Positions 6,034-41,330 of a stretch of 64,000 nt of DNA are shown piece by piece. The notes under the pieces are model-generated. The model was not told the DNA's origin. It was given only the letters and a program-made list of their open reading frames with translations, and made no database searches. This DNA comes from Oceanirhabdus seepicola (GTDB lineage: Bacteria; Bacillota; Clostridia; Clostridiales; Clostridiaceae). Location: assembly GCF_023684385.1 (NCBI RefSeq), contig NZ_JAGSOJ010000007.1, positions 144,148 to 208,147 of the forward strand, in the 5' to 3' direction. Each line of letters starts with the position of its first letter. Position 1 is the stretch's first letter. The position numbers were made by a program, and so were the translations under genes.

Positions 6034-6040
6034 GAAGTGA

Positions 6041-6160
6041 ATACAGAGTAAAAATCTGGTATCTTAGTGGTGGGATGTCAGATTTTTGTCGTTTAGAAAT
6101 TAGAATAGTCATAGTTACATATATGAGATTATGTTAACTAAATAATGTAAACAAAAACAT
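6041..6160 (+). repeat. Intergenic repeat copy A: terminator-like hairpin plus a conserved AT-rich module
   Basis: 'ATACAGAGTAAAAATCTGGTATC..GATGTCAGATTTTTG' is a 12-bp stem followed by a T-run. It is followed by 'TTACATATATGAGATTATGTTAACTAAATAATGTAAACAAAAACATT'. The same element recurs at 29758, 41201 and 59101. Confidence 0.8.
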
Positions 6161-6812
6161 TCAAACTGCAATAATAGTTAGAGCTTCTTTATAGATTGCT
6201 ACTTTAGCCAGTTTTCACCACTCTGTTAACTCAGTATTAAAGTCTTATTTTTGAATTATTATAACTCAATTCCAACATGAGATTTACATGTTGAGATAGG
6301 AATTGTTATTTGGGCCGACTGGGGTGAGTGTGACTTGGTTGGTTTGTTTTTCGTATGATAAAAACAATTTTTGGAATAAGTAGTTAAAACAGTTGAAAAA
6401 AAATTTTGGAAAAAGAGGAAAATGTTAATAAATGTAGAATATAATTAAATAAGTGGAATAAAATCAAAATTAAACTTTAATCACTCAATATGATAAAAGT
6501 AATAAATATTATCATATATAGCATAGGTTATAAGGTATACATATGACTTCGAGTATTTGCATTTATCAGAATTTTCGATATTATCTAAAGTTTGAATGAT
6601 ATAGTCTAAAGTTTATTTGCTTGCATTTGTTTTCAAGAGAATTTACCTTTCTTTTTGGGTTATTTATATATGTGGTGATATATTAATATTTCTACATTTT
6701 AATAATTCTACATTAAGTGGGGGAAATTTTTTTTGAAAGCATTTTAAAATATTTTTTTAGCGGTTGTAGTGTTCTGCAACTGACTATATTATCAAAAGGG
6801 GGAAATAAAGTA

Positions 6813-14760: not shown

Positions 14761-15137
14761 TGCATAGAAAGAGGATTTTTTTTACAATAGCTTTATCTAT
14801 TCTTATAATGTTACTATTATTGTTTTTAGTATATGATTTTGATATGAGCTTGATGAATCTATCTAATGTACTTTTCTTTATGGGTACAGTTTACTTCTTT
14901 CCTGGATTAATTATTGTAACTGGTGCCTCTGAAATATTCAGTAGTGTTGGATATTTAAATAGAAGAATGTTTCGCAAAAATAAAGGTGATGGAAATGACT
15001 TCAAAACATTCAACGATTATAAGGAATATAAGCATATAAAGAGTGCGAAGTATAATACCAAAGGTAAAGGAGTAAATATATTACTTGTTGGTGGGGGATA
15101 TGTTATAATATCCATTGTTATAAGTATGATTATTTGA
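14760..15137 (+). CDS. Small membrane protein with two TM segments and a Lys-rich loop (DUF3899-like)
   Basis: A TAATG overlap with the upstream ATPase places it as the last gene of the operon. It has two hydrophobic segments. Confidence 0.55.
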   Translation: MHRKRIFFTIALSILIMLLLLFLVYDFDMSLMNLSNVLFFMGTVYFFPGLIIVTGASEIFSSVGYLNRRMFRKNKGDGNDFKTFNDYKEYKHIKSAKYNTKGKGVNILLVGGGYVIISIVISMII

Positions 15138-15206
15138 TGGATGTATAAGTTAGAGTTAAAAAGTATACATCTATAGTCACTACAGAAATGAATAAATTAT
15201 ATCGCG

Positions 15207-15262
15207 TAAAAATCTCCAACTTGGTTTAATTTGAATAAAACCAAGTTGGAGATTTTATTTTG
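15207..15262 (+). terminator. Rho-independent terminator of the Opp-like operon
   Basis: 'AAAAATCTCCAACTTGGTTT-aatttgaata-AAACCAAGTTGGAGATTTT' is a perfect stem of about 19 bp, followed by 'ATTTTG'. Confidence 0.85.
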
Positions 15263-15970
15263 CATTGAAGCAGCTAACGATTCAATTATTACAATAGGAG
15301 CAATAGAATGATATATATAATAAGAATGGTAAAATAATTGATAACACTCTTTGATTATGTCAATATATAATAATTCAAAGAATAAAGTATTTAATAAAGA
15401 TATTTAAAAAGCAGTCTCAACATGAAAAGATATTTAATCGTAAGGAATTTAAATTTAGCAGTGGCAATAACATGTTTATTAGAAAGTAGACATGCTATTG
15501 CCACTGCCATGAGATATACAATACTTTGGAATAGTTTTAAGGATGTGAGGAACGAACATGGTTTAAGATAGTCCAAAGTTTCCATATAGAAATGGTGTCT
15601 TAAGGGGAGAGATAACTCTTCTTTTAAGAGGGGGGAAGGGGGGGGAGAAACTTATTGTTGTCAAATGAATAAATGGGGAATTTGATTTATTTGTAATATA
15701 CAATAAAAATTTAAATTATGATAACAGTAGGTTAAATAATGTTGCTTTAAAGGATAATAAAATAAAATCTTTGGAAAAGTTCAAGTGCTGATAAATAATA
15801 GAGTCTTTAGAAAGATAAATAAATATCACAATCTTATGAGAATAGTGAGCAGCTCTTGAGTTTGTCCAAAGCGACCATATAGAGAAATTGATTGGGAAGA
15901 TTAAAATCTTATAAGGGTTAAGGTTTTGTTGTCTTAGATTTATAGAAAATATATAAATATATAAGCTTCT

Positions 15971-16669
15971 TAATCAACTTCAGATAAAAGTCTATTGTAT
16001 AGAAGTATACTATTTGTAATCTTTAGAAGTTCCTTATCAAGTATGTCATTTCCTTTTAAATCACATATCATCTTGAACTTTTCAATAGAGCTTTTGGTTA
16101 TGGGCCCTATTATCCCATCAACAATAAGAGGTTTATTTTCATAAGCTAATATCCCAAGTGAATTTAAGTTCTCCTGGAGTTTATTAATTAGTTCATTGTT
16201 ACTTTTAGTAATCTTACTTTTAATTTAATCATATTTATATAGCTCATTCTCCTCAATTATATATAAGTTTATTAGGATAATCAGGGTCAGTGCAATATCC
16301 ACAAGTATAAAGATTATGACAGCCTTCATAATAGTCTTTTGAGTTAATAACAGGTATATATCTAGATGCTTTAGATAGAAGCTCAGCATAATCATCAAAA
16401 CTATCTTCATAGCTGTTATACTTTCTAAATAAGCACATCATAGGAGTTTTAACTCCATTTATCCATTCATAAGTTTGAAGTTCTTCATATTCAAAACCAG
16501 ATTTTCTAGTCCTTTTAATACCAAATAGATTATTCCCTTTACAGTATTTTAGCCATCCAGTTTCTAGTATTACTTGAGCGATAGTTACTGATGGCAAAAG
16601 TGAATATTTTTCGTCAATCTTTTTTGCATAAGGTAATAATAAAGAAATGACCTTTGACTTGAAACACAT
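15971..16669 (-). pseudogene. Endolysin-like cell-wall hydrolase: N-terminal glucosaminidase domain plus C-terminal PG_binding_1 domain, disrupted by a frameshift
   Basis: The glucosaminidase ORF runs 16253-16669 ('AQVILETGWLKYCKGNNLFGIK', 'YCTDPDYPNKLI'). It has no signal peptide and a 'GGAGGTG' RBS. The peptidoglycan-binding repeat ('LQENLNSLGIL..IVDGIIGPITKSSIEKFK') continues at 15971-16227 in a different frame with no start codon. Confidence 0.65.
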
Positions 16670-16885
16670 TTTATCACCTCCTTCAATATGAATATATGCA
16701 GTAAGTTATTTGGTTTGTAATTCTCATTAAAACTATCTCCTAGTATGAAGTTTTTTTTATAAGTCTATAAATATTTTAGTAGCAATAAAACTACAACATT
16801 TATAAACTCAATATGTTAAAATATAGTATATGTAAAAAAATAGGAATAAGGAATTTTTATAGGAGAGAAAAAAGGGGGGGAGTTC

Positions 16886-17506
16886 ATGCCTATTAAAGAA
16901 ACAAAGATAAGATTATTTTCAAGTGAATTTGAAGAAATGATTAATAAAAGGCAGGTTTCTTCAGATACTGTTTTCATAGATAAAAAAATATGGAATGAGT
17001 ATGGAAAAACCTATAGTATTATGGTTACTGATTTAAGCGGATTTACTAGTAATTCCATTGAGAGAGGAATTTTGAATTTTATTTCATTAATATATGAAGC
17101 TATGATTTTAACAGAGGCTATTGTAGAAGAAAACAATGGAGAGATTTTAAAAACAATTGGGGATACATTTGTAATTCTTTTTCCAAATCCTAAGGATTCA
17201 GTAAAGTGTGCTATAGAAATTCAAAATGCTTTGAGGGTAAGTAATAAAATAAAAGCTGAAAGTTTAAAGCTGCACATGAGTGTAGGTATTGGATATGGAC
17301 AAGTCTTAAAAGTAAGTAATAATGATATATTCGGTGTAGAGCTTAATATAGCTAGTAAACTTGGAGAAGATATAGGAATACCTAATGAAATTTTAATTTC
17401 AGAAGAGGTTAGGAATTATATAAATGAATACGAACTTCTATATAACTATGAATTAATTACCACAGAATATAATATTGGAAAAGTTTATAAATTAAAGTTT
17501 AAGTAA
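16886..17506 (+). CDS. Minimal class III nucleotidyl cyclase (adenylate/guanylate-cyclase fold, 206 aa)
   Basis: The catalytic motifs are 'VTDLSGFT' (metal-binding Asp), 'KTIGDTFVILF', 'VGIGYGQV' and 'GVELNIASKLGE'. A G7 tract forms the RBS. Confidence 0.8.
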   Translation: MPIKETKIRLFSSEFEEMINKRQVSSDTVFIDKKIWNEYGKTYSIMVTDLSGFTSNSIERGILNFISLIYEAMILTEAIVEENNGEILKTIGDTFVILFPNPKDSVKCAIEIQNALRVSNKIKAESLKLHMSVGIGYGQVLKVSNNDIFGVELNIASKLGEDIGIPNEILISEEVRNYINEYELLYNYELITTEYNIGKVYKLKFK

Positions 17507-17628
17507 CATAGGAAAAAAGAGAATAATATAAGATAAATAATAACCATAACTATGAATACTGCTGTTGATAATAAAGTCCTTGTAAATGACTTTTAAATTG
17601 GTAAAGTGACAAAATTAATTCTATTGTA

Positions 17629-17820
17629 AACCAAAATGATATTGTACTTATAGCTGGTAGTTTGCCAAATGGAGTTCCAAAAGATTTATACTATAAATTG
17701 ATACTAGAATGTAAAGAAAAGTGTGCTGAAGTTATACTTGATGCGAGATGAGAACAGATGAGATTAGCTTTAAAGGGTAAGCCTATGATAAACCAATCAT
17801 TGGACTTCAAATAAAGTAAC
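17629..17820 (+). pseudogene. PfkB-family sugar kinase remnant (1-phosphofructokinase / tagatose-6-P kinase-like)
   Basis: The fragment 'NDIVLIAGSLPNGVPKDLYYKLILECKEKCAEVILDAR' is followed by an in-frame TGA and then 'EQMRLALKGKPMINQSLDFK'. It has no start and an internal stop. Confidence 0.55.
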
Positions 17821-17869
17821 AGATAAAAGCTATTTAGCTAAAGTGTAAAGGAATAGAGGGGATGTTCTT

Positions 17870-18695
17870 ACAAGTCTTAGTTATAAATTAAAGGAATTAC
17901 CAAATGATTGGTTTAGATTAATAAAGATAAGAGAAATTATGGATAAAAAAGAAGAACTATCAGATAAGAGAGAATTAAAAAGTGAGAAATTAAATATATT
18001 AGAATGTGCATTAGAGGATTATAGAAAAGCATCTGAAATATTATTTAAATAGATTAGAAGAGGAATTAAAAGACTATCAAATAGCAATAGAAATAAGAGA
18101 AAGATTAGATAAAGAAGGAAAGCTCCCAGATAAAAATTATTTAGTTCAAGTGTACTATAATAGGGTCTTTGTACTTTTAAGGAAAAATCAATATAATGAA
18201 GTTTTAGAAGAAGCATTAAAAGGACTAACTATTTATGTTGATAATCTTCATAATGGAAGGTTTTTATATAATATTATAGTTACTTTAATGCATATGGTAA
18301 CAATGATTTCTAATAAACAAAAATGTTTAGAGAGGTATATTCCATTAGTTGTATCTTGTTTTAAAAGTATTAAAAATAAAGAAGTTACAGAGAAATCTCA
18401 AAAGATGCTAGAAGAAATTGCCTTTGTAATTAATGAAAGAATGGAAAAGGAAAATAAGAAAGATGTACAAGAGTTAATCAGTAGAATTAAAGAGATTTCA
18501 ATAAAAAGACAAGATGATACTAGTGATGAGTTTTTGTTAGCGGATATAATGGAGATTGAAGGTAGTCTTTATGGTTATTACTTTTCTAAGGCTCAGAAGG
18601 AGTTACTTGTATTAAGAATTGTAATATCACAAAATAATGTAAAGGTAGAATTTATTGAAGATGTTAAAGAAATTGAAAGCTATAGAGGAATATAG
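17870..18695 (+). pseudogene. Remnant of a TPR/helical-repeat transcriptional regulator (Rgg/RNPP-like C-terminal domain), frameshifted
   Basis: The ORF at 18150-18695 continues upstream in-frame as '..EEELKDYQIAIEIRERLDKEGKLPDKNYLVQVYYNRV..' with no start. Further upstream (..ECALEDYRKASEILFK*) the sequence continues in another frame. No HTH domain is present. Confidence 0.4.
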
Positions 18696-18811
18696 GAAAA
18701 AAGGGAACACAAAAAAATCGTAAAATGGTAAAAAAGTCTTAAATATTGATAATAGTTATGATTTCATATACGAGTTAATTAAAAGAATATGAAATTTGAA
18801 AGGAGAAGAGA

Positions 18812-21427
18812 ATGAAAAACGTACAATTTAAATTTATTGGACAAGGATCCACTGTTAGTAGTGAGTCAAAATCAGATATCTTAAAACCAAAGAGCAATAG
18901 AATATTCTTAGATGTAGGGAATGCCTTAGATTATAAAAATATAATTATTGATAATCATCAAGAATACTCTAAGTACGATAGTAATAAAGAGAGACCTATT
19001 AGTGTAGCAAGTATTTGTTACAATGAAAAAGACGATATAGAAGAATATCTTCAAAGAATAGAAGAGGACGAAGTTGAAATTGTACTTCATAGCGAACCAG
19101 ATATTGATTGTATTGTTTCTGCCTTCATTATTAGTAAGTACCTAAATAATGAAAAGTTACATAAGGATATGTCAATCATAGTAGATTGTGTTGAACAAAT
19201 TGATTCCGGAAGAATGGAATATAAAAACAATGAAATAATTAATCCTTGTTTCATACCATATGCACTAGATGAGGTTCTTAAAAGACAGAATAATCAAAAA
19301 AATAAATATGAAGAGAAAAAAGCTCAAGAGGCGAAAGAAAAAGGAGAAAGAACACATAAGTATGATATTAACGAAGAAGTAGTTCAAAAAGGTTTTAAGT
19401 TGATTGAAGTAATTCTAAAGTGCTTAAGTAAACTAGATAAAAAAGAAAAATTTTTAGATAATGTTGATATATCAAAAGAAACAGATCTTTTTGAAGAAGA
19501 ATTGATGCTTTTAAAGAAAGATTATGATCTTTACTTAGAAGAGAGAAAGAATGCTGAAATATGTTATGAAAGTAAAGTGAAGCTACCTATAAAAAATAGC
19601 TATGAGAATGAATTAAAAGAGGTGGATGCTTTATTTTGGAATGGAAAATCAAAGTGTATTCTTCATAAGTATTGGGCAAGACAAGATAAAACTGCTCCTT
19701 TAGGAGAAGGATTTATTTTTACATTTATTCTATCACAAATATTAAAAGGAGAGCATCAAGAAAAAAGAATTAAGCATAGGGACATTAATGTTAATAGAGT
19801 TATTATATCTGTAAATCCTAGAAGTGATGTTTCATTAAAAGGGTTAGGAGAGGCACTTGAAAAAGGAGAATGCTTTAAGGAGAAAGAATACTTTAAAAGT
19901 AGAGTAAGTTTATGGAGGAATAGGGGCAAGTCTAGGTTCCCAGAAGAATGGTGTGATAATGATGATCCATGGTATGATGGAAGAAATTTTGATTACACAA
20001 TAGTTGATTCTCCAAGAATAGGAAGTCTTATGAGTATTAGTGAAATAAAGCATATTGTTAATAATTTTACTGCTCCATTAGTAGAGGATTATTTAATAAA
20101 ATATGTTATACCATTCACAATTGATGAAAAGAAATATACTCAACTATGCAAAAAACTCAATAAGATTAAAGGAAATAATCTAGAAGAGGATGAAATTAAA
20201 GAATATTTTTGTAAACCAATACAAACATATTTATTTGAAAATTCCATTGAAGAAAGTAATTCTGGAAATCGTAGTTTTAACTGTAATAAATACTCTTATG
20301 ACATAAAAAGCTTGATAAGAGAAAATATGCTTAATGAAGTTAATGGAAAAACCCTGAATATATCAGATAATATCCTTAATATTATTGTGTTTAAATATGG
20401 AATAGGTTTCATTCATTTTGATATTGAAATTCAAAATGAAGAGAGCAATTTGCGTTTTGATGAGATTCTTAATATTAAGTATGATTTAAGCAATAATACT
20501 ATTGAAGAAAGAATATTCAATAAACTAATTGAAGGAATAAAAATAAAAGAATATGTTGTAGAGAAGAAAAAAGTAATGTTCTTCTCTGGCATTAGTATAA
20601 AATCGAATATATATTATGAAGAAAAGCATAAGAAAATGATATATAAGCAGATGAATTCTATGAACTGGAAAGGCGTTAATCATAATTCTAGATATATGAA
20701 TTATTTCATAGATAGAGATATTATTAAAGCAGACGAAAATACTTATTATGGTTTTAGTAAAAATGGAGGTGCACTACTTATTATTGACGATAATGATAAG
20801 TGTGAAAATTGTACAAGCGACCAGAATGGTGAATCAAATAAGTTGAAATGTATTAATGAATGTGGAAGAAATAAAAATAAAAAAAGTATTCATGATTATT
20901 TTGGAAAAAACGATTTTTATTTATTTTTAATAGCATTACAACAAAGATTGAGTTTACTAGCTTTTGACAATAAACTATCTGTATATGATAAAAAAAGCCA
21001 AAAAAGAGATATACAAAGATTAAGAGGGTTACTGGTTAATTTCACAACACAAGGGTGGTTCAGTGAGGTAACTGAAGATAAGATAGGAACTGTACTTTAT
21101 AAGAAATGGACAGAAATTTTTGAAAATACAGATTTATATAATGAGATTTATAGCCAGTTATCAGCAGTAGATGATTATTATAAAGCAAAAATGTCAAATC
21201 AATTAACACTTATATCAGCCATAACATTTCCTATGGTTTTTATAGGATCAATAGCAGGATTATATGATACAGGATATATGACAAGTGGTAGACAAGTATT
21301 TGAGTTAAAATGGATACCAGCTACAGAAGAGATGGTTGGAGCTTTAAGTATAGGTTGGGGATGTTTTTCTACATTCTCTCTTATGGTATTTTTAATTGTT
21401 ATAATATTTTTCTATCGGAAGAGATAA
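18812..21427 (+). CDS. 871-aa membrane protein with a divergent DHH-family-like N-terminal domain, a central helical region and a C-terminal CorA-like two-TM pore domain
   Basis: The N-terminal 'IVLHSEPDIDCIVSAFIISKYL' fits DHH motifs I/II (H..PDxD..S), and 'SIIVDCVEQ' fits the motif II Asp, but no canonical DHH triad follows. The C-terminus 'NQLTLISAITFPMVFIGSIAGLYDTGYM..ELKWIP..FFYRKR' aligns with the CorA TM1-GMN-TM2 region, with 'DTG' in place of GMN. The RBS is 'AAAGGAGAAGAG'. Confidence 0.65.
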   Translation: MKNVQFKFIGQGSTVSSESKSDILKPKSNRIFLDVGNALDYKNIIIDNHQEYSKYDSNKERPISVASICYNEKDDIEEYLQRIEEDEVEIVLHSEPDIDCIVSAFIISKYLNNEKLHKDMSIIVDCVEQIDSGRMEYKNNEIINPCFIPYALDEVLKRQNNQKNKYEEKKAQEAKEKGERTHKYDINEEVVQKGFKLIEVILKCLSKLDKKEKFLDNVDISKETDLFEEELMLLKKDYDLYLEERKNAEICYESKVKLPIKNSYENELKEVDALFWNGKSKCILHKYWARQDKTAPLGEGFIFTFILSQILKGEHQEKRIKHRDINVNRVIISVNPRSDVSLKGLGEALEKGECFKEKEYFKSRVSLWRNRGKSRFPEEWCDNDDPWYDGRNFDYTIVDSPRIGSLMSISEIKHIVNNFTAPLVEDYLIKYVIPFTIDEKKYTQLCKKLNKIKGNNLEEDEIKEYFCKPIQTYLFENSIEESNSGNRSFNCNKYSYDIKSLIRENMLNEVNGKTLNISDNILNIIVFKYGIGFIHFDIEIQNEESNLRFDEILNIKYDLSNNTIEERIFNKLIEGIKIKEYVVEKKKVMFFSGISIKSNIYYEEKHKKMIYKQMNSMNWKGVNHNSRYMNYFIDRDIIKADENTYYGFSKNGGALLIIDDNDKCENCTSDQNGESNKLKCINECGRNKNKKSIHDYFGKNDFYLFLIALQQRLSLLAFDNKLSVYDKKSQKRDIQRLRGLLVNFTTQGWFSEVTEDKIGTVLYKKWTEIFENTDLYNEIYSQLSAVDDYYKAKMSNQLTLISAITFPMVFIGSIAGLYDTGYMTSGRQVFELKWIPATEEMVGALSIGWGCFSTFSLMVFLIVIIFFYRKR

Positions 21428-21499: not shown

Positions 21500-22453
21500 C
21501 TATTTTAAAGAATTTAGTTCTGAGTTTGTCCAAGACTTAACATGATCAAGGAACAAGTTTAACTCTTGTGAGTCTTCGTCTAAAGGAGTATTTATATCAG
21601 CCACTGTATAAGTGTTCCACACCCTATCGAAAATTCCATCACTGCATACATCGTGCTGACATAAAACAAAAACCTTTAAACCAAGTGCATTAGCAAGTCC
21701 ACCTTCTAGATGTAGCCAACCAGAAGTATATTTGCGATGAACCTCTTCAGTTTCATGACTTGTCCCTTCTTTTTCTCTTAAAAAATAAGCGTGACTTTTT
21801 TCAAGTCCTAATATTACGGCACCTTTACATTGGCTCATTAATTCTCTGATTTTGCCTATAGGATCATGTTTATCATATACAGTAAGGTTAGCACGAACTA
21901 TTTTTATTCCAATAGACTCAAGCTTGTATATAATAGTTTGAATAAAATACTCTTGTTCAGGAGTGTGAGGAGTAATAGTGCTTAGAAATACAGGAACTTT
22001 ATTATCGGGTTTTTCTATTATTTGTTCATTGATTTTTTCATGTTTAGGTGTAGAGAAAGTTTTGTACCAATTTAAGATTACTTCTATCCCAGCAGTTATA
22101 AATTTAGCATCTTCAACCAAAGTCGTCTTTGGTAATCCAGTATGATGAACTAATCTATTTCTGGTGCTTCGAATATTATCACATCTTTGTATAATTTCAT
22201 TTGGAATGGAAGGGAAAGTAGCAGAATGATTTTTATTATATTGATTTAATCTTTGTATTGAACCATTAAGGTCATATGATTTACTATTTGAAATATCTAA
22301 ATCATATGATAGTTGGTTTAAAAATGATTCTATAAAAACAGCACCCCATATTGCACATGAGAAATATTCCTTATTTTCATGGCTTAACATACAATTTTTT
22401 AAATGATAAAAAGATGTTTCTTGTAAATAATCTCTATAATCATTTATGTTCAT
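21500..22453 (-). CDS. Two-domain protein: N-terminal DUF4145/HEPN-like domain plus C-terminal nucleoside 2-deoxyribosyltransferase-like (NDT/Rossmann-like) domain
   Basis: 'IRSTRNRLVHHTG' fits the DUF4145 signature R-x2-(G/R)-N-x3-H and the HEPN Rx4-6H motif. The C-terminal 'KVPVFLS..' and 'SGWLHLEGGLANALGLKVFVL' match the NDT-like motif (D/S-G-T-x-x-E-x-G-x-A-x-A-x-G-K-P-V). The RBS is 'AGGAGGA'. Confidence 0.55.
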   Translation of the reverse strand: MNINDYRDYLQETSFYHLKNCMLSHENKEYFSCAIWGAVFIESFLNQLSYDLDISNSKSYDLNGSIQRLNQYNKNHSATFPSIPNEIIQRCDNIRSTRNRLVHHTGLPKTTLVEDAKFITAGIEVILNWYKTFSTPKHEKINEQIIEKPDNKVPVFLSTITPHTPEQEYFIQTIIYKLESIGIKIVRANLTVYDKHDPIGKIRELMSQCKGAVILGLEKSHAYFLREKEGTSHETEEVHRKYTSGWLHLEGGLANALGLKVFVLCQHDVCSDGIFDRVWNTYTVADINTPLDEDSQELNLFLDHVKSWTNSELNSLK

Positions 22454-22820
22454 AAAGACTTATCCTCCTAGGTAATATTTTTATAAATGTACACAATATC
22501 ATGAGTACATTATATCATTTCAGTAAAGTATTTACTATAAATACAAGTTATGTGTTGTTGTGTTATTAACGAATGTAATGGAAATATATTTCATTGAAAT
22601 ACCAAAACAAAAAAATAGTGATGAAAAGATATGCTAGTAGCATGGACTGAATTCTTAAAAAATACTGAAAGTGAGAAAGTTAGAATCTTAGAAATGAGAA
22701 GTATAATAATAAAAGATAAAGTAATTGCTCTAAATAAAACTAAAGAAGAATTTAGAAAAATGAGGGGTTATTATTAAAATCTTAAGGAGATAGTTTTATA
22801 GCTACATTTAAGAATCTTAA

Positions 22821-22949
22821 TATTGTGTTAAAACAGCTATTCAAATTCTAAGGAGACTAAGATTATACAATATAAATAGAACTGAAAATAACAAGCTTTT
22901 ATTAGGTGTTGGTATTGGCTATGGTGATGTTATAAAGATCGGAAATTAG
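22821..22949 (+). pseudogene. Fragment of a second class III nucleotidyl cyclase, a paralog of the gene at 16886
   Basis: 'TAIQILRRLRLYNINRTENNKLLLGVGIGYGDVIKIGN*' aligns with the cyclase segment 'CAIEIQNALRVSNKIKAESLKLHMSVGIGYGQVLKVSNN'. It has no start and a premature stop. Confidence 0.55.
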
Positions 22950-23316
22950 ATATTTCTTATAAAGAAGCTGAGCATGTCACTGTTGGATTTAAAAAAGCAT
23001 ATAAACTAATTTACAAACTTAAATATGTATAATAATTTCAATGTTAAAAGGAAAATAAAGCAAAAAAGATAGTAAAGGAACTAAGTAAGTGAGCAATAAG
23101 TGAAACTGAAATTTTAATATATATTACTGAAATGGTGCATTAATTATAGGAAAAAGTAATAGTATTATTAATGGATATATAATTTTTAAAATTTATTAAT
23201 AAATTAAGTTAGTTTAAGAATACTAAAGAGGGTGATAAAAATTAATGATATAACTTTTAAATAATGTTTCTTAGGGCATGGACCTCTGTACATAATATAA
23301 ATGAAGATATATTTGT

Positions 23317-23650
23317 TTAGATATTGGTAATAAATTACATTATGGTGTTATAGTCATCATCATTTGAAAAGAGATTTTCGTGTACAACTTCATTAGATAC
23401 AATATCAAAGGATTTGATTCCTGTACCTAAGGGAAAAGTTTATAATATTATTATACATTTTTCTACAGACTTTGACTCACTAGCATCAATTTATTTGGTA
23501 ACGGTATACTTAATAAATGGTGCGTTTCCTAAATATACAGATGATTTAATAGAGTATGTTGAAATAATAGATTCAGGGAGAATGAGTATAGATAAGTTAA
23601 ATTTAAAATGTCCTGCGACAGTTGCTAATTTTTTAGAAATGTCAGTATAG
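23317..23650 (+). pseudogene. Fragment of a second DHH-like/CorA effector gene, a paralog of the 18812 N-terminus, frameshifted
   Basis: 'LDIGNKLHYGVIVIII*' matches 'LDVGNALDYKNIIID'. In the ORF at 23414-23650, 'IIIHFSTDFDSLASIYLVTVYL...IEYVEIIDSGRM' matches 'IVLHSEPDIDCIVSAFIISKYL...IVDCVEQIDSGRM'. The two pieces are in different frames. Confidence 0.6.
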
Positions 23651-24102
23651 AAGCAATAAGGATGAATTAGGCATGAAGCTTTATAATTATTGGGATAATA
23701 TCTTTCAAAACAATATTTTATATGAAGAGGTAACAGAGCGATTAGCTTCAGTGGATGAATATAAAAGAATTGAATGAGATAGAAAAGTGAATAAAATAAC
23801 AGCGATATTTATACCTATAATTTTGTTAGATTAAATATTTGCCATTGGGATATTTGAGGGAATAAATCCAATCAAGATAAGTTTGTTAATAACAGTAATA
23901 ATAACTCGTGTATAATACCACTTATAAGATTTTATTTAGACTTCGAAAAAAATAAATAATGAAATGGGATATAAAATAGAATTTAAATTAAAGAATTTTA
24001 CACTAAGGCTAAAATGTTATTAAACTGTTTTAGTCTTTCTTTATGTAAAAATAAAAAGTATAAGTAAAGCATAAAATTAAAATATCAATAAAGGAGCTGA
24101 TT

Positions 24103-26862
24103 ATGGATAATAATCCTAAGTTAAAAGAAACACTTAATGAATTATGTTTTTATTTACCATTAGAAGTGCAAGTAGATATTGAAGCAGCTTATGATCATTT
24201 GTTAAGGGATAGCAAAAATTATTGTGATGCTATTCAAAGATTAAGGAAAGCAGGGGAAGCGATTACTGCATTAATGGTTGAAGCTTTAGAATACAAGCCA
24301 GCAGTATCAAGAAGTGGAAGTCCAAAGACAATTGCTAGTCAACTAAAATACATAGATGATAAAGATTTCGTTTTTAGTATGGAGGTTGTAAGAGAGAAAG
24401 GTAATGATGTATCACATTCTTCACTAGGAAAAGATAAAAATAGATACAATTTAGAGATGGTATATGAAATATTTAAAAACTTCATTAATTGTGTGATTAT
24501 CTATATTACTAGAGGGTTACATGAAGATGATATTACAGAAAAATTAAATGAAATCGAAAAGAAACACAGTAATAATAAATATAATAATTTGAGTCTTGAG
24601 CAACCAGATGCTTTTGAATCCGAAGATAAAAATCAAGAGTTAGATACTAAAGGTGAAAAAGAAGAGCAAGTTAAATATGATGAGACAAATGATGAAAATA
24701 AAAATTCCAATATGAGTGAAGCTATTGAAAACATGAATTTTCAAAAGTTCCATATTAAAAACGAGAGTTTTAACAATAATGAAATCTTAAAAGATTACTC
24801 ATTTATTAAGTCAGCTAGAAGTTATGATGAAAGAAGAATATATCAAAAGAAAACTTACTTTGATATTGATGGTATTGAAATTGAAAAATCATATATTACT
24901 ACTGATGATATAGGGGAAATAATTTCAACATATGAGGAAGGAGATAAATATAAACTAATAAAGGGAGATTTTGATAGAAATAAAAATAAAAGATTAATTA
25001 TAATAGGTTCAGAAAAATCCCGTGGTAAAAGATCAACAGCAATTAAACTTCTCAGGGAATTAAAAAAGAAAAATGAAATTTTTTATTTTTCTCAAGTAGA
25101 TGAAAGTATAAAACTATACAATTTAAAAAAATATTTGAAAGATAAAAATATTTCCTACAACAAATCTTACATTATTAGAATGCATATAAGCGATCTGTTT
25201 GACTTAAATAAAAAGAATACCTTAGATGAAATTAATCTAGAGTTGAAAAAAAAGCATTCGTACATGGTAATTATTTCGCAGGATAGCTTTGATGACAAAA
25301 AATACAATGAGTATTATTATTCTTGGAATATGGATATAAACTTAGAAAAGATCATGAAAAATAAGATAAAATTCTTTGAGAAATCCTCTAAAAAGTATAA
25401 AAAGTATATTGAAAAATTGAAAGAGGCTGAAATATTTGAAGAACTAAAGCAAGTTCCAATAAGTCCTAGCCTTATAGCTGTTTATGTAAGAAATATTTTG
25501 GAAAAAGATCCACAGCATCCTGAATTTGCTTCACAAGCTAAAAAAGCATACCCTGCAAATTTAAAAGAAGAGGCTAGAAATACAATAGAGAATAATAAAA
25601 ATGATTTAGATGTGCTTTGTAAATTGTTATGCTTAAGTTTATTTCGCAAATTAAACAAGCCTCTATTTAATGACTTAAGTGAAAGTCTGATGCTAAACTT
25701 TAGTGAACTTGTTAATGAAGAAGAAAGACAAGAATTCATGAGTAAAGAGCGCTTGTTAAAGAATGACTCATATGTGGCAGAGAAAATTAATGCTAAAAAA
25801 GAAGTACAAATTATAAAAAGCAATTATGGAGATATTGAAGAAAGTTTCATTGAATTTGAAAATACTCAATTTTACGAAAAAGTATTAGAAAATCTTCTTG
25901 AGAATTATACAAGTATATACAAAGTAATTAGAGAATGGATATTAAAGAGATTTTTATATTTCAATCCAGTATTGGTTCAACTATTTATACCGAGTTTTAA
26001 ATACTTATTTATCAATGATAAGAAAACTATAATAAATACAATTTTAAGTCCATTGGTTAAGAAGAATTCGAAGTACGGTATAAAAAATATATGCACACTC
26101 ATAAATGCTTTAATAGAGATTGATAATGAGAATTTTATAATCGAATTTATTGAAAGAGTTAAGGGAATTAAAAAGCAAAGAGTTAAGAAAATAGTGTTGA
26201 ATTCGATTCCTAAAACACTTCATAAAAAATATCCTTTTAGGACCATTATGATTTTAAGACATTACATTGAGAAAGCATCCTCAATAAAAGAGATTGATGA
26301 ATGTTCATTATGTTTAAGTTTAATGATTGATCATAAAGTAATAAGAGATAATAGGTACATTGCATTAGAAGCTCTGGAAAATTGGTGTTTTGATTGTGAA
26401 GAGGATGAATTTTTTAGAACTAAATCTAAATATATATATCTAAATGCTCTGTACTACAACATGTATAAGAGTGATTATTGCTTTGTGATTGAATATTCGG
26501 AAAATATCGACTTATTAGAGGAGCAAATACTGCCACTATATGAATTGATTTTAAAGGATAAATTTATGCTCAAGCATTTCATTGAGTATATATTCAATGA
26601 AATAAAGTTTATTGGTGAAAAAAAACAAGATCTAGATGAAAAAGTTGATATTATTGAAAATATTCTAACCTTAGTACTAAAGGAAATTAAATTAAGTGAT
26701 AAAAGATATAGGAAATCATTTTTCCCTAAAATTAATTACTGGTTAAGAAAATACAGTAGGGAGTTTAAAGCAGAGAAAAATTTAATTGATATAGTTTTAG
26801 ATAATGTTATTGAAGATAATTATGAAAGGAGAGAACTTTTAAATGAAGGACTTATTGATTAG
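24103..26862 (+). CDS. 919-aa protein with an N-terminal DUF4145/HEPN-like domain, an acidic linker, a possible degenerate P-loop and a C-terminal alpha-helical repeat region
   Basis: 'VVREKGNDVSHSSLG' matches the DUF4145 signature (R-x-x-G-N-x-x-x-H). 'LIIIGSEKSRGKRSTAIKLL' is Walker-A-like but off by one residue (Gx5GK). The RBS is 'AAAGGAG'. The 3' end overlaps the next gene by 20 nt. Confidence 0.55.
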   Translation: MDNNPKLKETLNELCFYLPLEVQVDIEAAYDHLLRDSKNYCDAIQRLRKAGEAITALMVEALEYKPAVSRSGSPKTIASQLKYIDDKDFVFSMEVVREKGNDVSHSSLGKDKNRYNLEMVYEIFKNFINCVIIYITRGLHEDDITEKLNEIEKKHSNNKYNNLSLEQPDAFESEDKNQELDTKGEKEEQVKYDETNDENKNSNMSEAIENMNFQKFHIKNESFNNNEILKDYSFIKSARSYDERRIYQKKTYFDIDGIEIEKSYITTDDIGEIISTYEEGDKYKLIKGDFDRNKNKRLIIIGSEKSRGKRSTAIKLLRELKKKNEIFYFSQVDESIKLYNLKKYLKDKNISYNKSYIIRMHISDLFDLNKKNTLDEINLELKKKHSYMVIISQDSFDDKKYNEYYYSWNMDINLEKIMKNKIKFFEKSSKKYKKYIEKLKEAEIFEELKQVPISPSLIAVYVRNILEKDPQHPEFASQAKKAYPANLKEEARNTIENNKNDLDVLCKLLCLSLFRKLNKPLFNDLSESLMLNFSELVNEEERQEFMSKERLLKNDSYVAEKINAKKEVQIIKSNYGDIEESFIEFENTQFYEKVLENLLENYTSIYKVIREWILKRFLYFNPVLVQLFIPSFKYLFINDKKTIINTILSPLVKKNSKYGIKNICTLINALIEIDNENFIIEFIERVKGIKKQRVKKIVLNSIPKTLHKKYPFRTIMILRHYIEKASSIKEIDECSLCLSLMIDHKVIRDNRYIALEALENWCFDCEEDEFFRTKSKYIYLNALYYNMYKSDYCFVIEYSENIDLLEEQILPLYELILKDKFMLKHFIEYIFNEIKFIGEKKQDLDEKVDIIENILTLVLKEIKLSDKRYRKSFFPKINYWLRKYSREFKAEKNLIDIVLDNVIEDNYERRELLNEGLID

Positions 26863-27979
26863 AGATTATGAAATTGATAAAAGCGTGACGAAGTTATTTT
26901 CTATTAACAGAAAGATTAATGATATTAATATTTCTATGGGAGAGTATCATGTATTACTAAATGAATCTACTGGAAAACACGATGTGTTTGAGTTTGGAAA
27001 TAAGATGCCTAAAACATCTGATTTGATAAAATTCAAGTACAATAAAGGATTTGTACTTAAAAAAAATGCACAGCATATTGATGGAGAATATAAATATAAT
27101 TGTTTAAAAACTAATGATGATTATTATGTGATTTATAGCTTGAAGTATAAAATTAATAATCCTTTAAAAGTTTGTGAAAATATAAATTTGGGTAAAGGCT
27201 CTAAAGAACTTATTAAAAATACAGTAATTCAATATATAAAAAAAGTCTTAGAAAGAAATATTAAATTTGATGTTTATGAATATGATTTGTGTAAGGATGT
27301 AATAGATAATTCATTTAGAGTTATATCATTTGAATCTTTAAATGAACAAATAGAGAACTATGGTATATTAATTGATAAGTGTGAAATAAATGTTACAGGT
27401 AGTAAGGCATTTAAAGAAGAAAGTCAGATGAGATTTAACAACAAAAGAAGTGTTAGGATATTAGAAAATGAAGTTATTACAAAAGATGAAATGAGTGGGT
27501 TAGAAGTTGAAAAGAATAAGATTGAGAATATAGTTAAAAAGAGTAGGGAAATTGAAGGTGTTAAAGTTGAAAATGAAATAGACAGGAAAAGAATAGAAGA
27601 GAGAGTCAAGGTTTTAGCATCAGTAGAACAATATATTGATGATCCTAAAAAATTAGCCTTGTTAAATGAAGAGTTTTATAATAAGGTTCAAGCAGCTGAT
27701 TCAAATGACATTGCTAAGAGAGTTGAAATTGAGAAAGCTAAACTGGAAATTAACAAACAAAAATTGGATATAATCTTAAAAATGAGAGAAGAAGGATTGG
27801 ATGATTATGAGATTGAATCTTTAACTAAGCAGGTGTTTGGATTAGATGATACTTCCAGTGATAACCATCTCAGTGGAAATAGCCGAGAGACAAAACGGTT
27901 AACCAATGAAAGTAAAGAGGAGGTAGAAGAAAGAAAGAATAAATATAAAGGGAAATTTGGAAAAAGGGAAAATGACTAA
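26843..27979 (+). CDS. Divergent SPFH/band-7-like domain protein with a C-terminal charged coiled-coil
   Basis: The fold pattern runs 'GEYHVLLNESTGKHDVFEFG..', then 'TNDDYYVIYSLKYKINNPLK', then '..SKELIKNTVIQYIKKVLERNIKFDVYEY..YGILIDKCEINV', and ends in a KE-rich coiled coil. The gene is translationally coupled to the 919-aa gene. Confidence 0.5.
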   Translation: MKDLLIRDYEIDKSVTKLFSINRKINDINISMGEYHVLLNESTGKHDVFEFGNKMPKTSDLIKFKYNKGFVLKKNAQHIDGEYKYNCLKTNDDYYVIYSLKYKINNPLKVCENINLGKGSKELIKNTVIQYIKKVLERNIKFDVYEYDLCKDVIDNSFRVISFESLNEQIENYGILIDKCEINVTGSKAFKEESQMRFNNKRSVRILENEVITKDEMSGLEVEKNKIENIVKKSREIEGVKVENEIDRKRIEERVKVLASVEQYIDDPKKLALLNEEFYNKVQAADSNDIAKRVEIEKAKLEINKQKLDIILKMREEGLDDYEIESLTKQVFGLDDTSSDNHLSGNSRETKRLTNESKEEVEERKNKYKGKFGKREND

Positions 27980-29565: not shown

Positions 29566-29766
29566 TTGACAAAAGTTCGCATTTTGGTAGGACGAGAAGA
29601 AGCAATATACACAGGAACATTTCCAGGATATAACGCAGTAAAATATGCTAAAGGTGAAAAAATACTGATACTCCCAAGAAAGAGTGCAATAGGCGATATA
29701 ATAGCTTATGCTAATTATAGAATGTTAAAGATGAAGGACCACAAAACAAGAAACACCCTAGAATAG
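29566..29766 (+). pseudogene. Duplicated 3' fragment of the TrmFO-like gene at 4762-6033
   Basis: '..EEAIYTGTFPGYNAVKYAKGEKILILPRKSAIGDIIAYANYRMLKMKDHKTR' is about 85% identical to residues ~330-385 of the 4762 protein. It is joined directly to repeat copy B, with about 190 nt deleted relative to the parental locus. Confidence 0.75.
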
Positions 29767-29820
29767 TCATATTTACATATATGAGATTATGTTAACTAAA
29801 ATAATGTAAACAAAAACATT
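29758..29820 (+). repeat. Intergenic repeat copy B, AT-rich module only
   Basis: 'TAGAATAGTCATATTTACATATATGAGATTATGTTAACTAAAATAATGTAAACAAAAACATT' is nearly identical to 6101-6160. Confidence 0.8.
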
Positions 29821-30379
29821 ATCAAACATGTCGATACAAGTTCTTGCAGCTATGTTTTCATGATCAAGCTGAACAAATATTGAGGCAATATATTTAGGGT
29901 GATGACTGTTAATGTTGGTATTTGGATAACAGACGGAGTGGAGGTGGGTATCAGTATTACAATTGGAAGAATGTTAGCATCTACAGGGGAAGAGATATAG
30001 ACAAAGTGGGAGCACAGTGTTACAGGCATAATATCCACACAGTCTTAATTTGAATTGAAGGGAATTACATGTTTGAGGAATGCCAGAGATTTAAAAACAA
30101 CGAGATATAAGTTTGTGTAACTATTTAAAAATATTAAAACTCTATTTCTTATGCATTTGTATTTACCTAATTATTAATATATTTCCATGATTTTCATTCT
30201 TATTATTTACATTTTATCTTTAATATAATAACATATATTTATAATTAAATTATATAATAGTAATATTGGGTCAACATTCCACGAATATGGAGAATTCATA
30301 GTGACCTTGGGAGAAGTGAAAAAAATGGAGTGGAAGATAGTAGTACATAGCTGTGGTGACGGTGATAAAGGGGGTTGTT

Positions 30380-31024
30380 ATGACTGAGTTGTTAAAAAAT
30401 GCTTTTACAGGGATAAATATTATTCCAACTGTGTTGTTGTTAATAGTAGTTTTCTATTGGATCGGCGTTATTTTCGGGGCATTAGGTTTTGATTTTTTAG
30501 ATTTTGAGCTAGATGGTGCTGATAATTCAGGTCCATTCTATGCAGTATTATCATTTCTAAATTTAGCGGAATTACCTTTTATGTTGGTCTTTAGTATTTT
30601 AATTTTAAATTTTTGGATAATAGCTATGTTGATGTATTATCTACCAATAGTCTCTGGAGGTCCAGTAAATGCGGTATTGCTGCTACCTGCTATGGTGGTT
30701 AGTATGTTTATCACAAAGTATGAGACGGTTCCCTTAAAGGGAATTTTCAATGACAGCAGTGTGCAGGAGGAAAGAGGGCGTGAAGTAATTGAACATGAAT
30801 GCATACTTAAGTGCGATTTGGAAAATGGACGATTAGGACAAGCGGAGATAAAAAGAGATGGAGCTTCAATAGTGATAAATGTGAAGTCGGAATTCCATGA
30901 AGAGTCATTCCATAAAGATGAGGTTGCATTTGTTATCAGAAAAGACACTGATAAAAATATATATTATATAGTTAAAATGGAGGAGAAGAAAAATGAGTTA
31001 TTTGATTCAGGTACTATTAGTTAG
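30380..31024 (+). CDS. YqiJ/NfeD-like inner-membrane protein (DUF1449-like), partner of flotillin
   Basis: It has three or four TM helices and a C-terminal soluble beta-rich domain. The ATG at 30380 follows 'AAAGGGGG'. It lies immediately upstream of, and overlaps, the flotillin gene. Confidence 0.6.
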   Translation: MTELLKNAFTGINIIPTVLLLIVVFYWIGVIFGALGFDFLDFELDGADNSGPFYAVLSFLNLAELPFMLVFSILILNFWIIAMLMYYLPIVSGGPVNAVLLLPAMVVSMFITKYETVPLKGIFNDSSVQEERGREVIEHECILKCDLENGRLGQAEIKRDGASIVINVKSEFHEESFHKDEVAFVIRKDTDKNIYYIVKMEEKKNELFDSGTIS

Positions 31025-33008: not shown

Positions 33009-33095
33009 AAGAAAATAACAAGTCAGTATACTCGTATATTTGACTTGTTATTTTCTTCAACATGCCAAAACTACACGTGAATGAGGTAGATAAAG

Positions 33096-41088: not shown

Positions 41089-41200
41089 CACCAGAGTGAC
41101 TGGCATCACTGGAACATACATATAGGGCTGAAAGACGACTTAAATAAAGTATTGGGAAAAAATTTGTAGTTGTAAACCTACTTGGTTGTTTTTTAATGAA

Positions 41201-41330
41201 TACAGAATAGAAATCTGATATCTTGGGAGTGGGATGTCAGATTTTTGTATTTGGAAATACTTTTTGAAAATATATTTACATATATGAGATTATGTTAACT
41301 AAAGTAATGTAAACAACAAAACTAAAATTA
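41201..41330 (+). repeat. Intergenic repeat copy C, hairpin plus AT-rich module
   Basis: 'ATACAGAATAGAAATCTGATATC-ttgggagtgg-GATGTCAGATTTTTG ...TTACATATATGAGATTATGTTAACTAAAGTAATGTAAACAA' is collinear with copy A. Confidence 0.8.

What the first reader, a model, noticed from the sequence alone, without database searches (positions are those of the whole stretch)
22600..23650. Degraded second copy of the cyclase / DHH-CorA pair in the same gene order
The region contains two collinear gene remnants.
- 22821-22949 translates to 'TAIQILRRLRLYNINRTENNKLLLGVGIGYGDVIKIGN*'. This is a clear paralog of the cyclase C-terminal half ('CAIEIQNALRVSN...SVGIGYGQVLKV').
- 23317-23650 contains frameshifted pieces matching the N-terminus of the 871-aa effector ('LDIGNKLHYGVIVIII', 'IIIHFSTDFDSLASIYLVTVYL..VEIIDSGRM').

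A second, decayed copy of the same two-gene unit is independent evidence that cyclase plus DHH/CorA is an inherited module. It also indicates rapid turnover of a defence-island locus.
Basis: seen in the sequence. Interest (0 to 1): 0.6.

Follow-up and report, generated by a model that had tools for sequence, protein, structure and literature searches.

The report
Decayed second cyclase–NrN/CorA gene pair
This stretch is the dead, heavily deleted relic of a second cyclase plus membrane-effector gene pair sitting 1 kb downstream of an intact pair; it is real but an ordinary pseudogene, and it came from a different branch of the family rather than from a recent copy of its neighbour.

Summary
Window 22.6-23.95 kb (Oceanirhabdus seepicola, Clostridiaceae) carries collinear, same-strand relics of a ~205-aa class III cyclase and an ~830-870-aa DHH(NrN-like)/CorA-like effector. 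They lie in the same order as the intact pair at 16886-17506 and 18812-21427. tblastn scores exceed all 300 dinucleotide shuffles.

The effector relic is therefore head plus tail, with about 582 codons deleted between them. At least 10 other lesions are present, including a lost ATG, nonsense codons, three 1-nt deletions and one 22-nt deletion. The cyclase relic has stops and frameshifts and lacks about 39 codons of the catalytic region.

It is not a decayed duplicate of the neighbouring pair. The effector relic is 49% identical to metagenomic protein P0011 and only 26-32% identical to the resident effector (nearest neighbour in 999/1000 bootstraps). No intact orthologue exists among the ~15 billion proteins searched.

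The "inherited module" idea is only partly supported:
- About 20 loci with full-length effector relatives show no detectable cyclase.
- The DHH-like domain is nevertheless fused or adjacent to class III cyclases in distant phyla.

Decay is shown; its speed is not. Interest is modest.

The parts
22617..23029 (+). Cyclase pseudogene as a whole. About 410-460 nt are retained of a ~620-nt gene. It is a relic of a ~205-aa stand-alone class III cyclase.
   Evidence: tblastn; family-profile hmmsearch on three-frame translations (HMM positions 80-146 and 185-206); DNA alignment A5.
22617..22640 (+). Tentative N-terminal landmark. SDEKIC is aligned to the family motif IDKKIW and is followed by two in-frame stops (TAG TAG, 22635-22640).
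   Evidence: The spacing to the next piece (about 139 nt) fits the roughly 50 codons expected. One search also offers a weaker alternative register (HMM 118-147), so this part is uncertain.
22756..22815 (+). Cyclase aa ~82-101 (KNEGLLLKS*GDSFIATFKN). It has a nonsense codon TAA at 22783-22785. The second metal-binding GDxF motif is retained.
   Evidence: 11.4 bits, HMM 80-106. A frameshift lies between this piece and the next.
22824..22949 (+). Cyclase aa ~105-145 (CVKTAIQ...GVGIGYGDVIKIGN), ending in the stop TAG at 22947-22949. The next ~39 codons of the family are missing. They contain the conserved FGxxVNxASKLGED segment.
   Evidence: (35.3 bits).
22949..23020 (+). Cyclase C-terminal tail (ISYKEAEHVTVGFKKAYKLIYKL) in a third frame. 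It matches the last ~24 residues of P0070.
   Evidence: (46% over 24 aa, joint E 3.8e-9).
23225..23237 (+). Former translation start of the effector. A Shine-Dalgarno-like AAAGAGGG is aligned to AAAGGAGG of the P0011 gene. The ATG is replaced by ATA (23235-23237), and a GTG lies 3 nt upstream.
   Evidence: DNA alignment A3.
23232..23365 (+). Effector pseudogene, codons 1-52, badly damaged. Lesions are TAT->TAA at 23262-23264, 1-nt deletions after 23281, 23311 and 23350, and a 22-nt deletion after 23364. The deletion after 23350 splits the conserved G-I-I-D-H-H motif.
23366..23650 (+). Effector codons 53-146, 94 codons with no lesion, then TAG at 23648-23650. This is the DHH-like core with HxxPDxD (here HFSTDFD, where the family-invariant Pro is Thr) and IDSG. 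It contains the 78-aa ORF 23414-23650, which public databases list as a protein (P0078).
   Evidence: 48% identity to P0011, E 1e-24; invariant columns.
23645..23662 (+). Junction of the large internal deletion. About 582 codons (~1.75 kb; P0011 codons ~150-731) are missing, and the frame changes.
23658..23955 (+). Effector codons ~735-833: the end of the CorA-like stalk and the two transmembrane helices. Lesions are AGG->TGA at 23775-23777, TCA->TAA at 23832-23834, and a 1-nt deletion after 23910.
   Evidence: E 1.5e-6 to the resident effector; 48% identity to P0011, E 7e-22; helices 752-796 and 810-832 in the model.
16886..17506 (+). Intact comparator: 206-aa class III cyclase.
   Evidence: PF00211 1.9e-12; PADLOC PycC 4e-7; 100% identical to the O. 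seepicola protein.
18812..21427 (+). Intact comparator: 871-aa DHH-like/CorA-like effector.
   Evidence: PADLOC CorA-like 6.6e-21 for aa 689-846; weak DHH hit; 100% identical to the O. seepicola protein.

Best explanation
The stretch from about 22.6 to 23.95 kb is a non-functional relic of a second two-gene unit.

**What the unit was**
- A small stand-alone class III nucleotide cyclase, followed about 200 bp later on the same strand by a membrane effector.
- The effector has an NrN-like DHH phosphodiesterase-fold N-terminal half and a complete CorA-like C-terminal half (cytoplasmic domain, stalk and two TM helices).

**Where it came from**
- The unit belonged to a different subfamily (P0011-like) from the intact pair 1 kb upstream.
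- It was therefore either acquired separately into this low-GC island or split from the resident pair long ago. It is not a recent duplicate.

**How it decayed (shown)**
- One deletion of about 1.75 kb removed the middle of the effector.
- A deletion of about 117 nt removed part of the cyclase catalytic region.
- A 22-nt deletion, several 1-nt deletions, the lost ATG and at least five nonsense substitutions complete the damage.

**What the ancestral unit probably did (inferred, not shown)**
- It probably worked as a signalling defence pair. The cyclase makes a nucleotide signal.
- The effector's cytoplasmic part binds that signal and/or its DHH domain hydrolyses it, gating a CorA-like membrane pore.
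- This is by analogy with Pycsar and with the SAM-AMP/CorA/NrN arm of type III CRISPR.

**Present state**
- The relic itself does nothing, beyond perhaps supplying promoter or spacer DNA.
For: **Homology and collinearity**

**Lesion map**
- It comes from DNA alignments to the P0011 gene and to intact cyclase genes.

**Subfamily placement**
- P0011 is 48.9% identical against 26.4% for the resident effector, and is the nearest neighbour in 999/1000 bootstraps.
- An exhaustive phmmer search over 1.84 billion cluster representatives found nothing closer than P0011, apart from the 78-aa ORF itself.
- The cyclase relic is equally distant from the resident cyclase and from P0070.
- There are no nucleotide repeats between the copies.

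**Architecture of the intact relatives**
- The AlphaFold model of P0011 has mean pLDDT 81 and pTM 0.73.
- Foldseek matches about 326 columns to full-length T. maritima CorA with probability 1.0.
- PADLOC finds CorA-like at 6.6e-21.

**Setting**
- The relic lies in a low-GC island at 15-30 kb.
- Other relics and defence-type genes are nearby.

**Cyclase linkage elsewhere**
- The DHH-like domain is fused to PF00211 in P0040, P0044 and L072.
- It is adjacent to cyclase genes in L054, L071, L030 and L056.
Against: - No orthologue of the second copy exists in the databases. The order and timing of the lesions, and relaxed selection, therefore cannot be measured.
- The retained 94-codon and 82-codon stretches still keep almost all family-invariant residues (only Pro86->Thr is changed). 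Decay is thus not ancient relative to the family's divergence.
- The functional model for the ancestral unit is analogy only.
- About 20 loci with full-length effector relatives have no detectable cyclase. The cyclase may therefore not be an obligate partner.
- The N-terminal third of the cyclase relic is barely recognisable, and its register is ambiguous.
Confidence: 0.85

Rival explanations
1. Recent in-place duplication of the neighbouring cyclase-effector pair, followed by decay. This is the simplest reading of 'degraded second copy'.
For: - The order, strand and island are the same, and the copies are only 1.1 kb apart across one reversed gene.
Against: - The effector relic is 26-32% identical to the resident effector but 48-49% identical to P0011. 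The resident effector was never as close as P0011 in 1000 bootstraps.
- The cyclase relic is no closer to the resident cyclase than to P0070.
- No DNA-level repeat links the two.
- Long lesion-free stretches with conserved motifs mean the divergence arose under selection, not by drift after duplication.
Confidence: 0.04
2. The similarity is chance or AT-rich low-complexity matching, and there is no second copy.
For: - The region is 25% GC, and individual HSPs to the resident proteins are short.
Against: - All real scores exceed 300 of 300 dinucleotide shuffles.
- E-values reach 1e-24 and 7e-22 against P0011.
- Five or six pieces are collinear and correctly spaced, including the ribosome-binding site and the stop region.
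Confidence: 0.01
3. The genes are intact in the organism, and the lesions are sequencing or assembly errors.
For: - Four of the small lesions are shifts in the same direction (-1) within 90 nt. This can look like systematic indel error.
Against: - The 1-nt gaps are not in homopolymer runs.
- About 1.75 kb and about 117 nt are simply absent.
- Five or more nonsense substitutions and an ATG->ATA change are not indel errors.
- Neighbouring long genes (871, 919 and 1645 aa) read through cleanly in the same assembly.
Confidence: 0.03
4. The relic retains a function. Examples are a translated 78-aa DHH-core fragment (23414-23650) or 48-aa ORF (22631-22777) acting as a decoy or regulator, or relic DNA serving as the promoter or leader for the 919-aa gene at 24103.
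For: - A 94-codon stretch is free of lesions, and gene callers predict a 78-aa protein (P0078).
- A promoter-like site lies at 23889-23916 upstream of the 919-aa gene.
Against: - The ORF starts at TTG, and its only purine-rich element (AAGGA) sits 2 nt upstream (read from the sequence).
- Promoter-like sites are fewer than in shuffles (16 against 22.3).
- There is no Rfam match.
- The fragment lacks most of the fold seen in the model.
Confidence: 0.06

Closest known systems
NrN-CorA fusions and NrN+CorA pairs of type III-B CRISPR (SAM-AMP signalling; Chi et al. 2023, PMC10600005)
   Same: - Intact relatives of the relic combine a CorA-like membrane module (PADLOC 6.6e-21; Foldseek to T. maritima CorA) with an N-terminal DHH-fold domain.
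- The best structural matches of that domain are PggH and NrN. The paper names PggH as one of the closest predicted structural matches of B. fragilis NrN.
- Fusion of nrn and corA is described there for A. butzleri and related species.
   Different: - No cas10, cas genes or CRISPR-like repeat families appear in the window.
- The adjacent putative signal generator is a ~205-aa class III cyclase, not Cas10.
- Sequence similarity to DHH is below Pfam's cut-off.
- The copy examined here is a dead relic.
Pycsar (PycC cyclase plus PycTM/PycTIR effector)
   Same: - It is a two-gene unit of a small class III-type cyclase followed by a membrane effector.
- The resident cyclase hits a PADLOC PycC model (4e-7).
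   Different: - The PycC hit is weak (27.7 bits).
- The effector has no cyclic-nucleotide-binding domain in Pfam, and its architecture is DHH plus CorA-like.
- Most effector relatives have no detectable cyclase neighbour.
P0011, an 833-aa metagenomic protein (Logan SRR29036721, locus L001)
   Same: - It is the closest intact relative of the effector relic: 48-49% amino-acid identity in both retained pieces and 65-72% DNA identity.
- The ribosome-binding site and the stop region align.
   Different: - It is intact.
- Its contig shows no detectable cyclase. Its neighbours are a radical SAM gene and a Lon-like AAA protease.
Ordinary bacterial pseudogenes and gene relics in defence islands
   Same: - It shows multiple frameshifts, nonsense codons and internal deletions.
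- It lies in a low-GC variable island beside other fragments.
   Different: - Nothing essential differs. The only unusual point is that a whole two-gene unit is still recognisable end to end.

Membership tests
Pseudogene (decayed gene relic) | Significant homology to a family with intact members | tested here: met
Pseudogene (decayed gene relic) | Disabling lesions (frameshifts, premature stops, loss of the start codon, large deletions), so that no near-full-length ORF remains | tested here: met
   The longest ORFs are 78 aa and 48 aa, against expected lengths of ~830 aa and ~205 aa.
Pseudogene (decayed gene relic) | Relaxed selection since inactivation (dN/dS near 1 against an orthologue) | not testable with these tools
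   No orthologue exists in the collections. The only hint is the family-invariant Pro86 replaced by Thr.
Class III nucleotide cyclase (PF00211), applied to the relic | Complete catalytic domain, including the conserved FGxxVNxASKLGED segment | tested here: not met
   Codons ~146-184 are absent and stops are present. The intact neighbour passes PF00211.
Pycsar | PycC-type cyclase | tested here: inconclusive
   The resident cyclase hits PADLOC PycC at 4e-7 and 27.7 bits over part of the model. The relic is too short to score.
Pycsar | Effector with a cyclic-nucleotide-binding domain fused to a TM or TIR domain | tested here: not met
   Pfam gives no cNMP-binding hit in the resident effector or in P0011.
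Pycsar | Production of cCMP or cUMP, and phage defence | not testable with these tools
   This needs biochemistry and infection assays.
Type III CRISPR CorA/NrN (SAM-AMP) ancillary module | CorA-like membrane protein with a soluble N-terminal domain | tested here: met
   PADLOC CorA-like 6.6e-21. Foldseek probability 1.0 to CorA over ~326 columns. This applies to the intact relatives; the relic keeps only the last ~100 codons.
Type III CRISPR CorA/NrN (SAM-AMP) ancillary module | Associated or fused DHH-family phosphodiesterase (NrN) | tested here: met
Type III CRISPR CorA/NrN (SAM-AMP) ancillary module | Genomic association with cas10 or a type III CRISPR locus | tested here: not met
   No CRISPR-like repeat family appears in the 64-kb window. 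None of the 32 window ORFs scanned with Pfam, 6 of them also with PADLOC, is a Cas protein. About 9 of the 37 ORFs of 150 aa or more were not scanned. The rest of the genome was not examined.
Type III CRISPR CorA/NrN (SAM-AMP) ancillary module | Activation by SAM-AMP | not testable with these tools
   This needs biochemistry.

The most novel reading that the evidence does not exclude
The small class III cyclase and the NrN-like/CorA-like fusion protein may form a CRISPR-independent signalling defence system. A cyclase-made nucleotide, rather than Cas10-made SAM-AMP, would gate a CorA-type pore, and the fused DHH domain would clear it.

The relic would then be a second, independently evolved instance of that system. 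Together with the cyclase-DHH fusions and adjacencies in Planctomycetota and Myxococcota, it would show that the pairing is old and recurrent.
Probability: 0.3. Interest if true: 0.65.

Novelty: new member of a known kind. Interest (0 to 1): 0.33.

Why it matters
The relic itself has no function. Its value is as comparative evidence.

- **Repeated arrangement.** The cyclase-then-NrN/CorA arrangement occurred twice, in two divergent lineages, in one island. This modestly strengthens the case that the intact pair upstream is a functional unit and not a chance adjacency.
- **Decay around the intact pair.** Other relics lie nearby, including a STAND-TPR fragment between the intact cyclase and its effector.
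- **Annotation.** The 78-aa "protein" listed in public databases is a pseudogene fragment.

If the pairing proves functional, CorA/NrN effectors would no longer be tied only to type III CRISPR.

Tried and rejected
**Searches for an intact version of the second copy**
- A word-indexed search with a reconstructed 226-aa relic protein found only two weak 335-aa hits.
- An exhaustive phmmer search with the 94-aa clean piece found nothing closer than P0011.
- Exact-sequence look-ups of the resident cyclase and effector found no other contig. No sister strains are available.

**Search for cyclases near effector relatives**
- A family-specific HMM on all ORFs of the 82 loci then held found none next to full-length relatives.
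- tblastn with the resident cyclase against all 85 loci, including the three fetched later, agreed.
- A Pfam census of 40 immediate neighbours also showed no cyclase among the families listed. The narrow HMM may miss divergent cyclases, and the census lists only the top 25 families.

**Search for effectors near cyclase relatives**
- None was found.

**Other checks**
- DNA repeats linking the two copies or marking deletion ends: only short, probably chance, matches. Microhomology at the big deletion cannot be assessed without the ancestor.
- Rfam: no hits. The promoter and terminator scan was uninformative.
- A PDB sequence search with the family profile found nothing significant. NCBIfam was uninformative.
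- Pfam does not recognise the relic pieces on their own.
- A Biopython NJ bootstrap timed out. I replaced it with a nearest-neighbour bootstrap.

**Unresolved register**
- Reading 22596-22685 as a further cyclase fragment (HMM 118-147; 3.5 bits) is not excluded.
- I judged it weaker than the collinear IDKKIW reading.

Full report
**Source and setting.** The resident cyclase and effector are 100% identical to proteins of Oceanirhabdus seepicola, a member of the Clostridiaceae. The finding lies in a low-GC stretch. GC is 25-28% between about 15 and 30 kb, against 32-35% on either side. The stretch sits between ABC-transporter operons.

Genes in order:
- An intact 206-aa class III cyclase at 16886-17506 (PF00211 1.9e-12; PADLOC PycC 4e-7).
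- A 1.3-kb spacer.
- An intact 871-aa effector at 18812-21427 (PADLOC CorA-like 6.6e-21 for aa 689-846; a sub-threshold DHH hit at aa 89-126).
- A reversed 317-aa gene at 21500-22453.
- The region in question.
- A 919-aa gene and a 378-aa gene at 24103-27979.

**Checking the observation.** The quoted translations are in the sequence. I ran tblastn with the intact proteins against the rest of the window, with the source genes masked. The best hits for each query fall here and are collinear:
- Cyclase aa 82-101 and 105-145 match 22756-22815 and 22824-22946 (49% identity, joint E 5e-7).
- Effector aa 69-136 matches 23381-23587 (E 6e-5).
- Effector aa 755-817 matches 23658-23846 (E 1.5e-6).

In 300 dinucleotide-preserving shuffles of 22500-24110, the best bit score never exceeded 25.0-27.7. 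The real values were 38.1-43.1 for the resident proteins and 86.7-95.5 for the relative P0011.

**Anatomy of the effector relic.** The closest intact relative is P0011 (833 aa, metagenome contig L001). It matches at 48% identity over codons 53-149 (E 1e-24) and 48% over codons 735-816 (E 7e-22). DNA alignments to the P0011 gene, with lesion positions computed, give the following map:
- A Shine-Dalgarno-like AAAGAGGG aligns with AAAGGAGG of the P0011 gene.
- The start ATG is now ATA (23235-23237).
- TAT has become TAA at 23262-23264.
- Single-base deletions follow 23281, 23311 and 23350.
- A 22-nt deletion follows 23364.
- Then come 94 clean codons (23366-23647) and a TAG.
- A junction at about 23645-23662 joins codon ~150 to codon ~731. 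That is roughly 582 codons, or 1.75 kb, lost with a frame change.
- The C-terminal piece runs to about 23955. It carries AGG->TGA (23775-23777), TCA->TAA (23832-23834) and a 1-nt deletion after 23910.

The relic is therefore head plus tail of the gene, about 720 of 2,500 nt.

**Anatomy of the cyclase relic.** The evidence is tblastn with the seven family members, a family HMM run on the three forward frames and a DNA alignment.
- Codons ~80-103 are in one frame, with a TAA at 22783-22785.
- Codons ~105-145 are in another frame and end in TAG at 22947-22949.
- About 39 codons are then lost. They hold the conserved FGxxVNxASKLGED segment.
- The last ~24 codons (22949-23020) are in a third frame.
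- An SDEKIC string at 22617-22634, followed by two stops, aligns with the family's IDKKIW motif at the expected distance. This part is weak, and offers an alternative register.

The cyclase relic ends about 200 bp before the effector relic's former start. In the ancestor the two genes were therefore adjacent on the same strand.

**Not a recent duplicate of the neighbour.** I compared the 224 alignment columns that the relic retains.
- The relic is 48.9% identical to P0011, 33.9% to the next best protein, and 26.4% to the resident effector.
- P0011 is the nearest neighbour in 999 of 1000 bootstraps. The resident protein was never as close.
- The cyclase relic is 40.5% identical to the resident cyclase and 44.7% to metagenomic P0070.
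- No nucleotide-level repeat links the two copies.
- An exhaustive phmmer search with the clean 94-residue piece ran against 1.84 billion cluster representatives. It returned only the 78-aa ORF itself (P0078) and then P0011 at 49%.
- A word-indexed search with a reconstructed relic protein found nothing closer.

No intact orthologue is known. The second unit belonged to a different subfamily from the resident one. Whether it arrived by separate horizontal transfer or by an ancient split cannot be decided here.

**What the ancestral genes encoded.** I modelled P0011 from a 23-sequence alignment (mean pLDDT 81, pTM 0.73).
- Foldseek matches about 326 columns to full-length Thermotoga maritima CorA with probability about 1.0. 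I assign this match to the C-terminal half, on the basis of the PADLOC CorA-like hit to the homologous C-terminal region of the resident effector and the long C-terminal helices of the model.
- Chi et al. name PggH as one of the closest predicted structural matches of B. fragilis NrN. They also describe nrn-corA fusions in A. butzleri and related species (PMC10600005).

The effector family is thus, in architecture, an NrN-CorA fusion. No CRISPR-like repeats or cas genes were seen in this window, and the neighbouring candidate signal generator is a small class III cyclase. Pfam finds no cyclic-nucleotide-binding domain, so it is not a canonical Pycsar effector.

**Is cyclase plus effector an inherited module?**

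Evidence against:
- None of the roughly 20 distinct loci encoding full-length effector relatives shows a detectable cyclase. This includes the closest relatives of the resident copy (P0002-P0005) and of the relic (P0011).
- The checks were precomputed Pfam annotation, a family HMM, tblastn, and a Pfam census of 40 neighbours.
- Their recurrent neighbours are instead DUF4145 proteins, STAND-type NTPases with TPR repeats, and Lon-like AAA proteases.
- Three loci carrying close cyclase relatives have no effector.

Evidence for:
- Two divergent lineages share the arrangement within this one island.
- The ~400-aa DHH-like domain, which also travels separately from the CorA half, is fused to PF00211 cyclases in P0040, P0044 and L072.
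- It lies 3 nt upstream of TPR-cyclase genes in two Planctomycetota MAGs (L054, L071), within ~0.8 kb of one in L030, and about 1.7 kb from a close relative of this very cyclase family in a Myxococcales MAG (L056; E 2.7e-48).

My reading is that the association is real and recurrent but facultative. The relic adds one data point and is not proof.

**Turnover.** Decay in this island is evident beyond the relic. The spacer between the intact cyclase and effector holds a frameshifted TPR-like ORF (18015-18692, with an upstream piece at 17849-18049). It matches the C-terminal TPR repeats of the 1334-aa STAND NTPase that follows effector relative P0005 in L084 (E 1e-9 to 4e-8). A faint PfkB-like piece is also present.

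Nothing measures the rate of this turnover. The relic carries at least 15 independent lesions. Yet it keeps all but one of the family-invariant residues in its retained stretches; the exception is Pro86->Thr. This suggests a relic of intermediate age, neither fresh nor ancient.

**Rivals considered.**
- Chance similarity is refuted.
- Recent duplication is contradicted.
- Sequencing artefact is unlikely. The large deletions and nonsense substitutions are not indel errors, and the 1-nt gaps are not in homopolymers.
- Residual function of the 78-aa ORF or of the relic DNA has no positive evidence.

**Verdict.** The finding is a real, well-delimited relic of a pseudogenised gene pair. It is ordinary as a biological object. 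Its interest is borrowed from the uncharacterised cyclase plus NrN/CorA pairing that it weakly corroborates.

Noticed in passing
window 17507-18811: The 1.3-kb spacer between the intact cyclase and the intact effector is itself made of relics. A frameshifted TPR-like ORF (18015-18692, with an upstream piece at 17849-18049 in another frame) matches the C-terminal TPR repeats (aa 872-1212) of the 1334-aa STAND NTPase next to effector relative P0005 in L084. A faint PfkB-like piece lies at 17605-17748 (E 0.077). A 33-nt imperfect direct repeat (17502-17534 and 18686-18718) brackets 1184 bp. This could mark an insertion or could be chance.
   Followed up: partly
window 21500-22453 (-) and L077 11187-11915: The reversed 317-aa gene between the two copies has a RxxxxH (HEPN-like) motif by eye and no Pfam hit. 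It has a 29%-identical homologue (E 4e-31) directly downstream of a DHH-like-domain gene in a Verrucomicrobiae MAG. It may be a further partner of this domain family.
   Followed up: partly
L001 10281-11978, L003 1837-3372, L005 3712-6480: Lon-like AAA+ proteases (AAA plus Lon_C) recur near full-length effector relatives. The L001 and L005 ones are 30% identical to each other. STAND NTPases with TPR repeats and DUF4145 proteins also recur.
   Followed up: partly
window 23414-23650: The 78-aa ORF inside the effector relic is present in public protein collections as a predicted protein (P0078, 99% identical). It is a pseudogene fragment that has been annotated as a gene.
   Followed up: yes
window 29571-29821; also 5727-6163 and 41197-41324: An 81%-identical 187-nt copy of the 3' end of the GIDA-like gene (5727-5913) sits at 29571-29757. 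It is followed by a 53-nt intergenic repeat that occurs three times in the window. It lies at the right edge of the low-GC island and may mark an old boundary or recombination site.
   Followed up: no
window 30353-38033: A three-gene cluster: a 223-aa protein, a 671-aa SPFH/Band_7 protein, and a 1645-aa DUF3686/DUF7902/AAA ATPase. It is probably another island cargo. A Band_7 protein also lies near effector relative P0002 in L002.
   Followed up: no
P0025-P0067 and L010-L082: The ~400-aa DHH-like domain is a mobile module. It is found alone, with the CorA-like half, with TIR domains (PF13676), with protein kinases and with cyclases. L003 has a stand-alone copy (407 aa) immediately upstream of the full-length effector.
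   Followed up: partly
window 15137-16886: There are no long ORFs except a 138-aa glucosaminidase-domain ORF on the minus strand (16253-16669; PF01832 1.3e-26). This may be another truncated gene at the left edge of the island.
   Followed up: no
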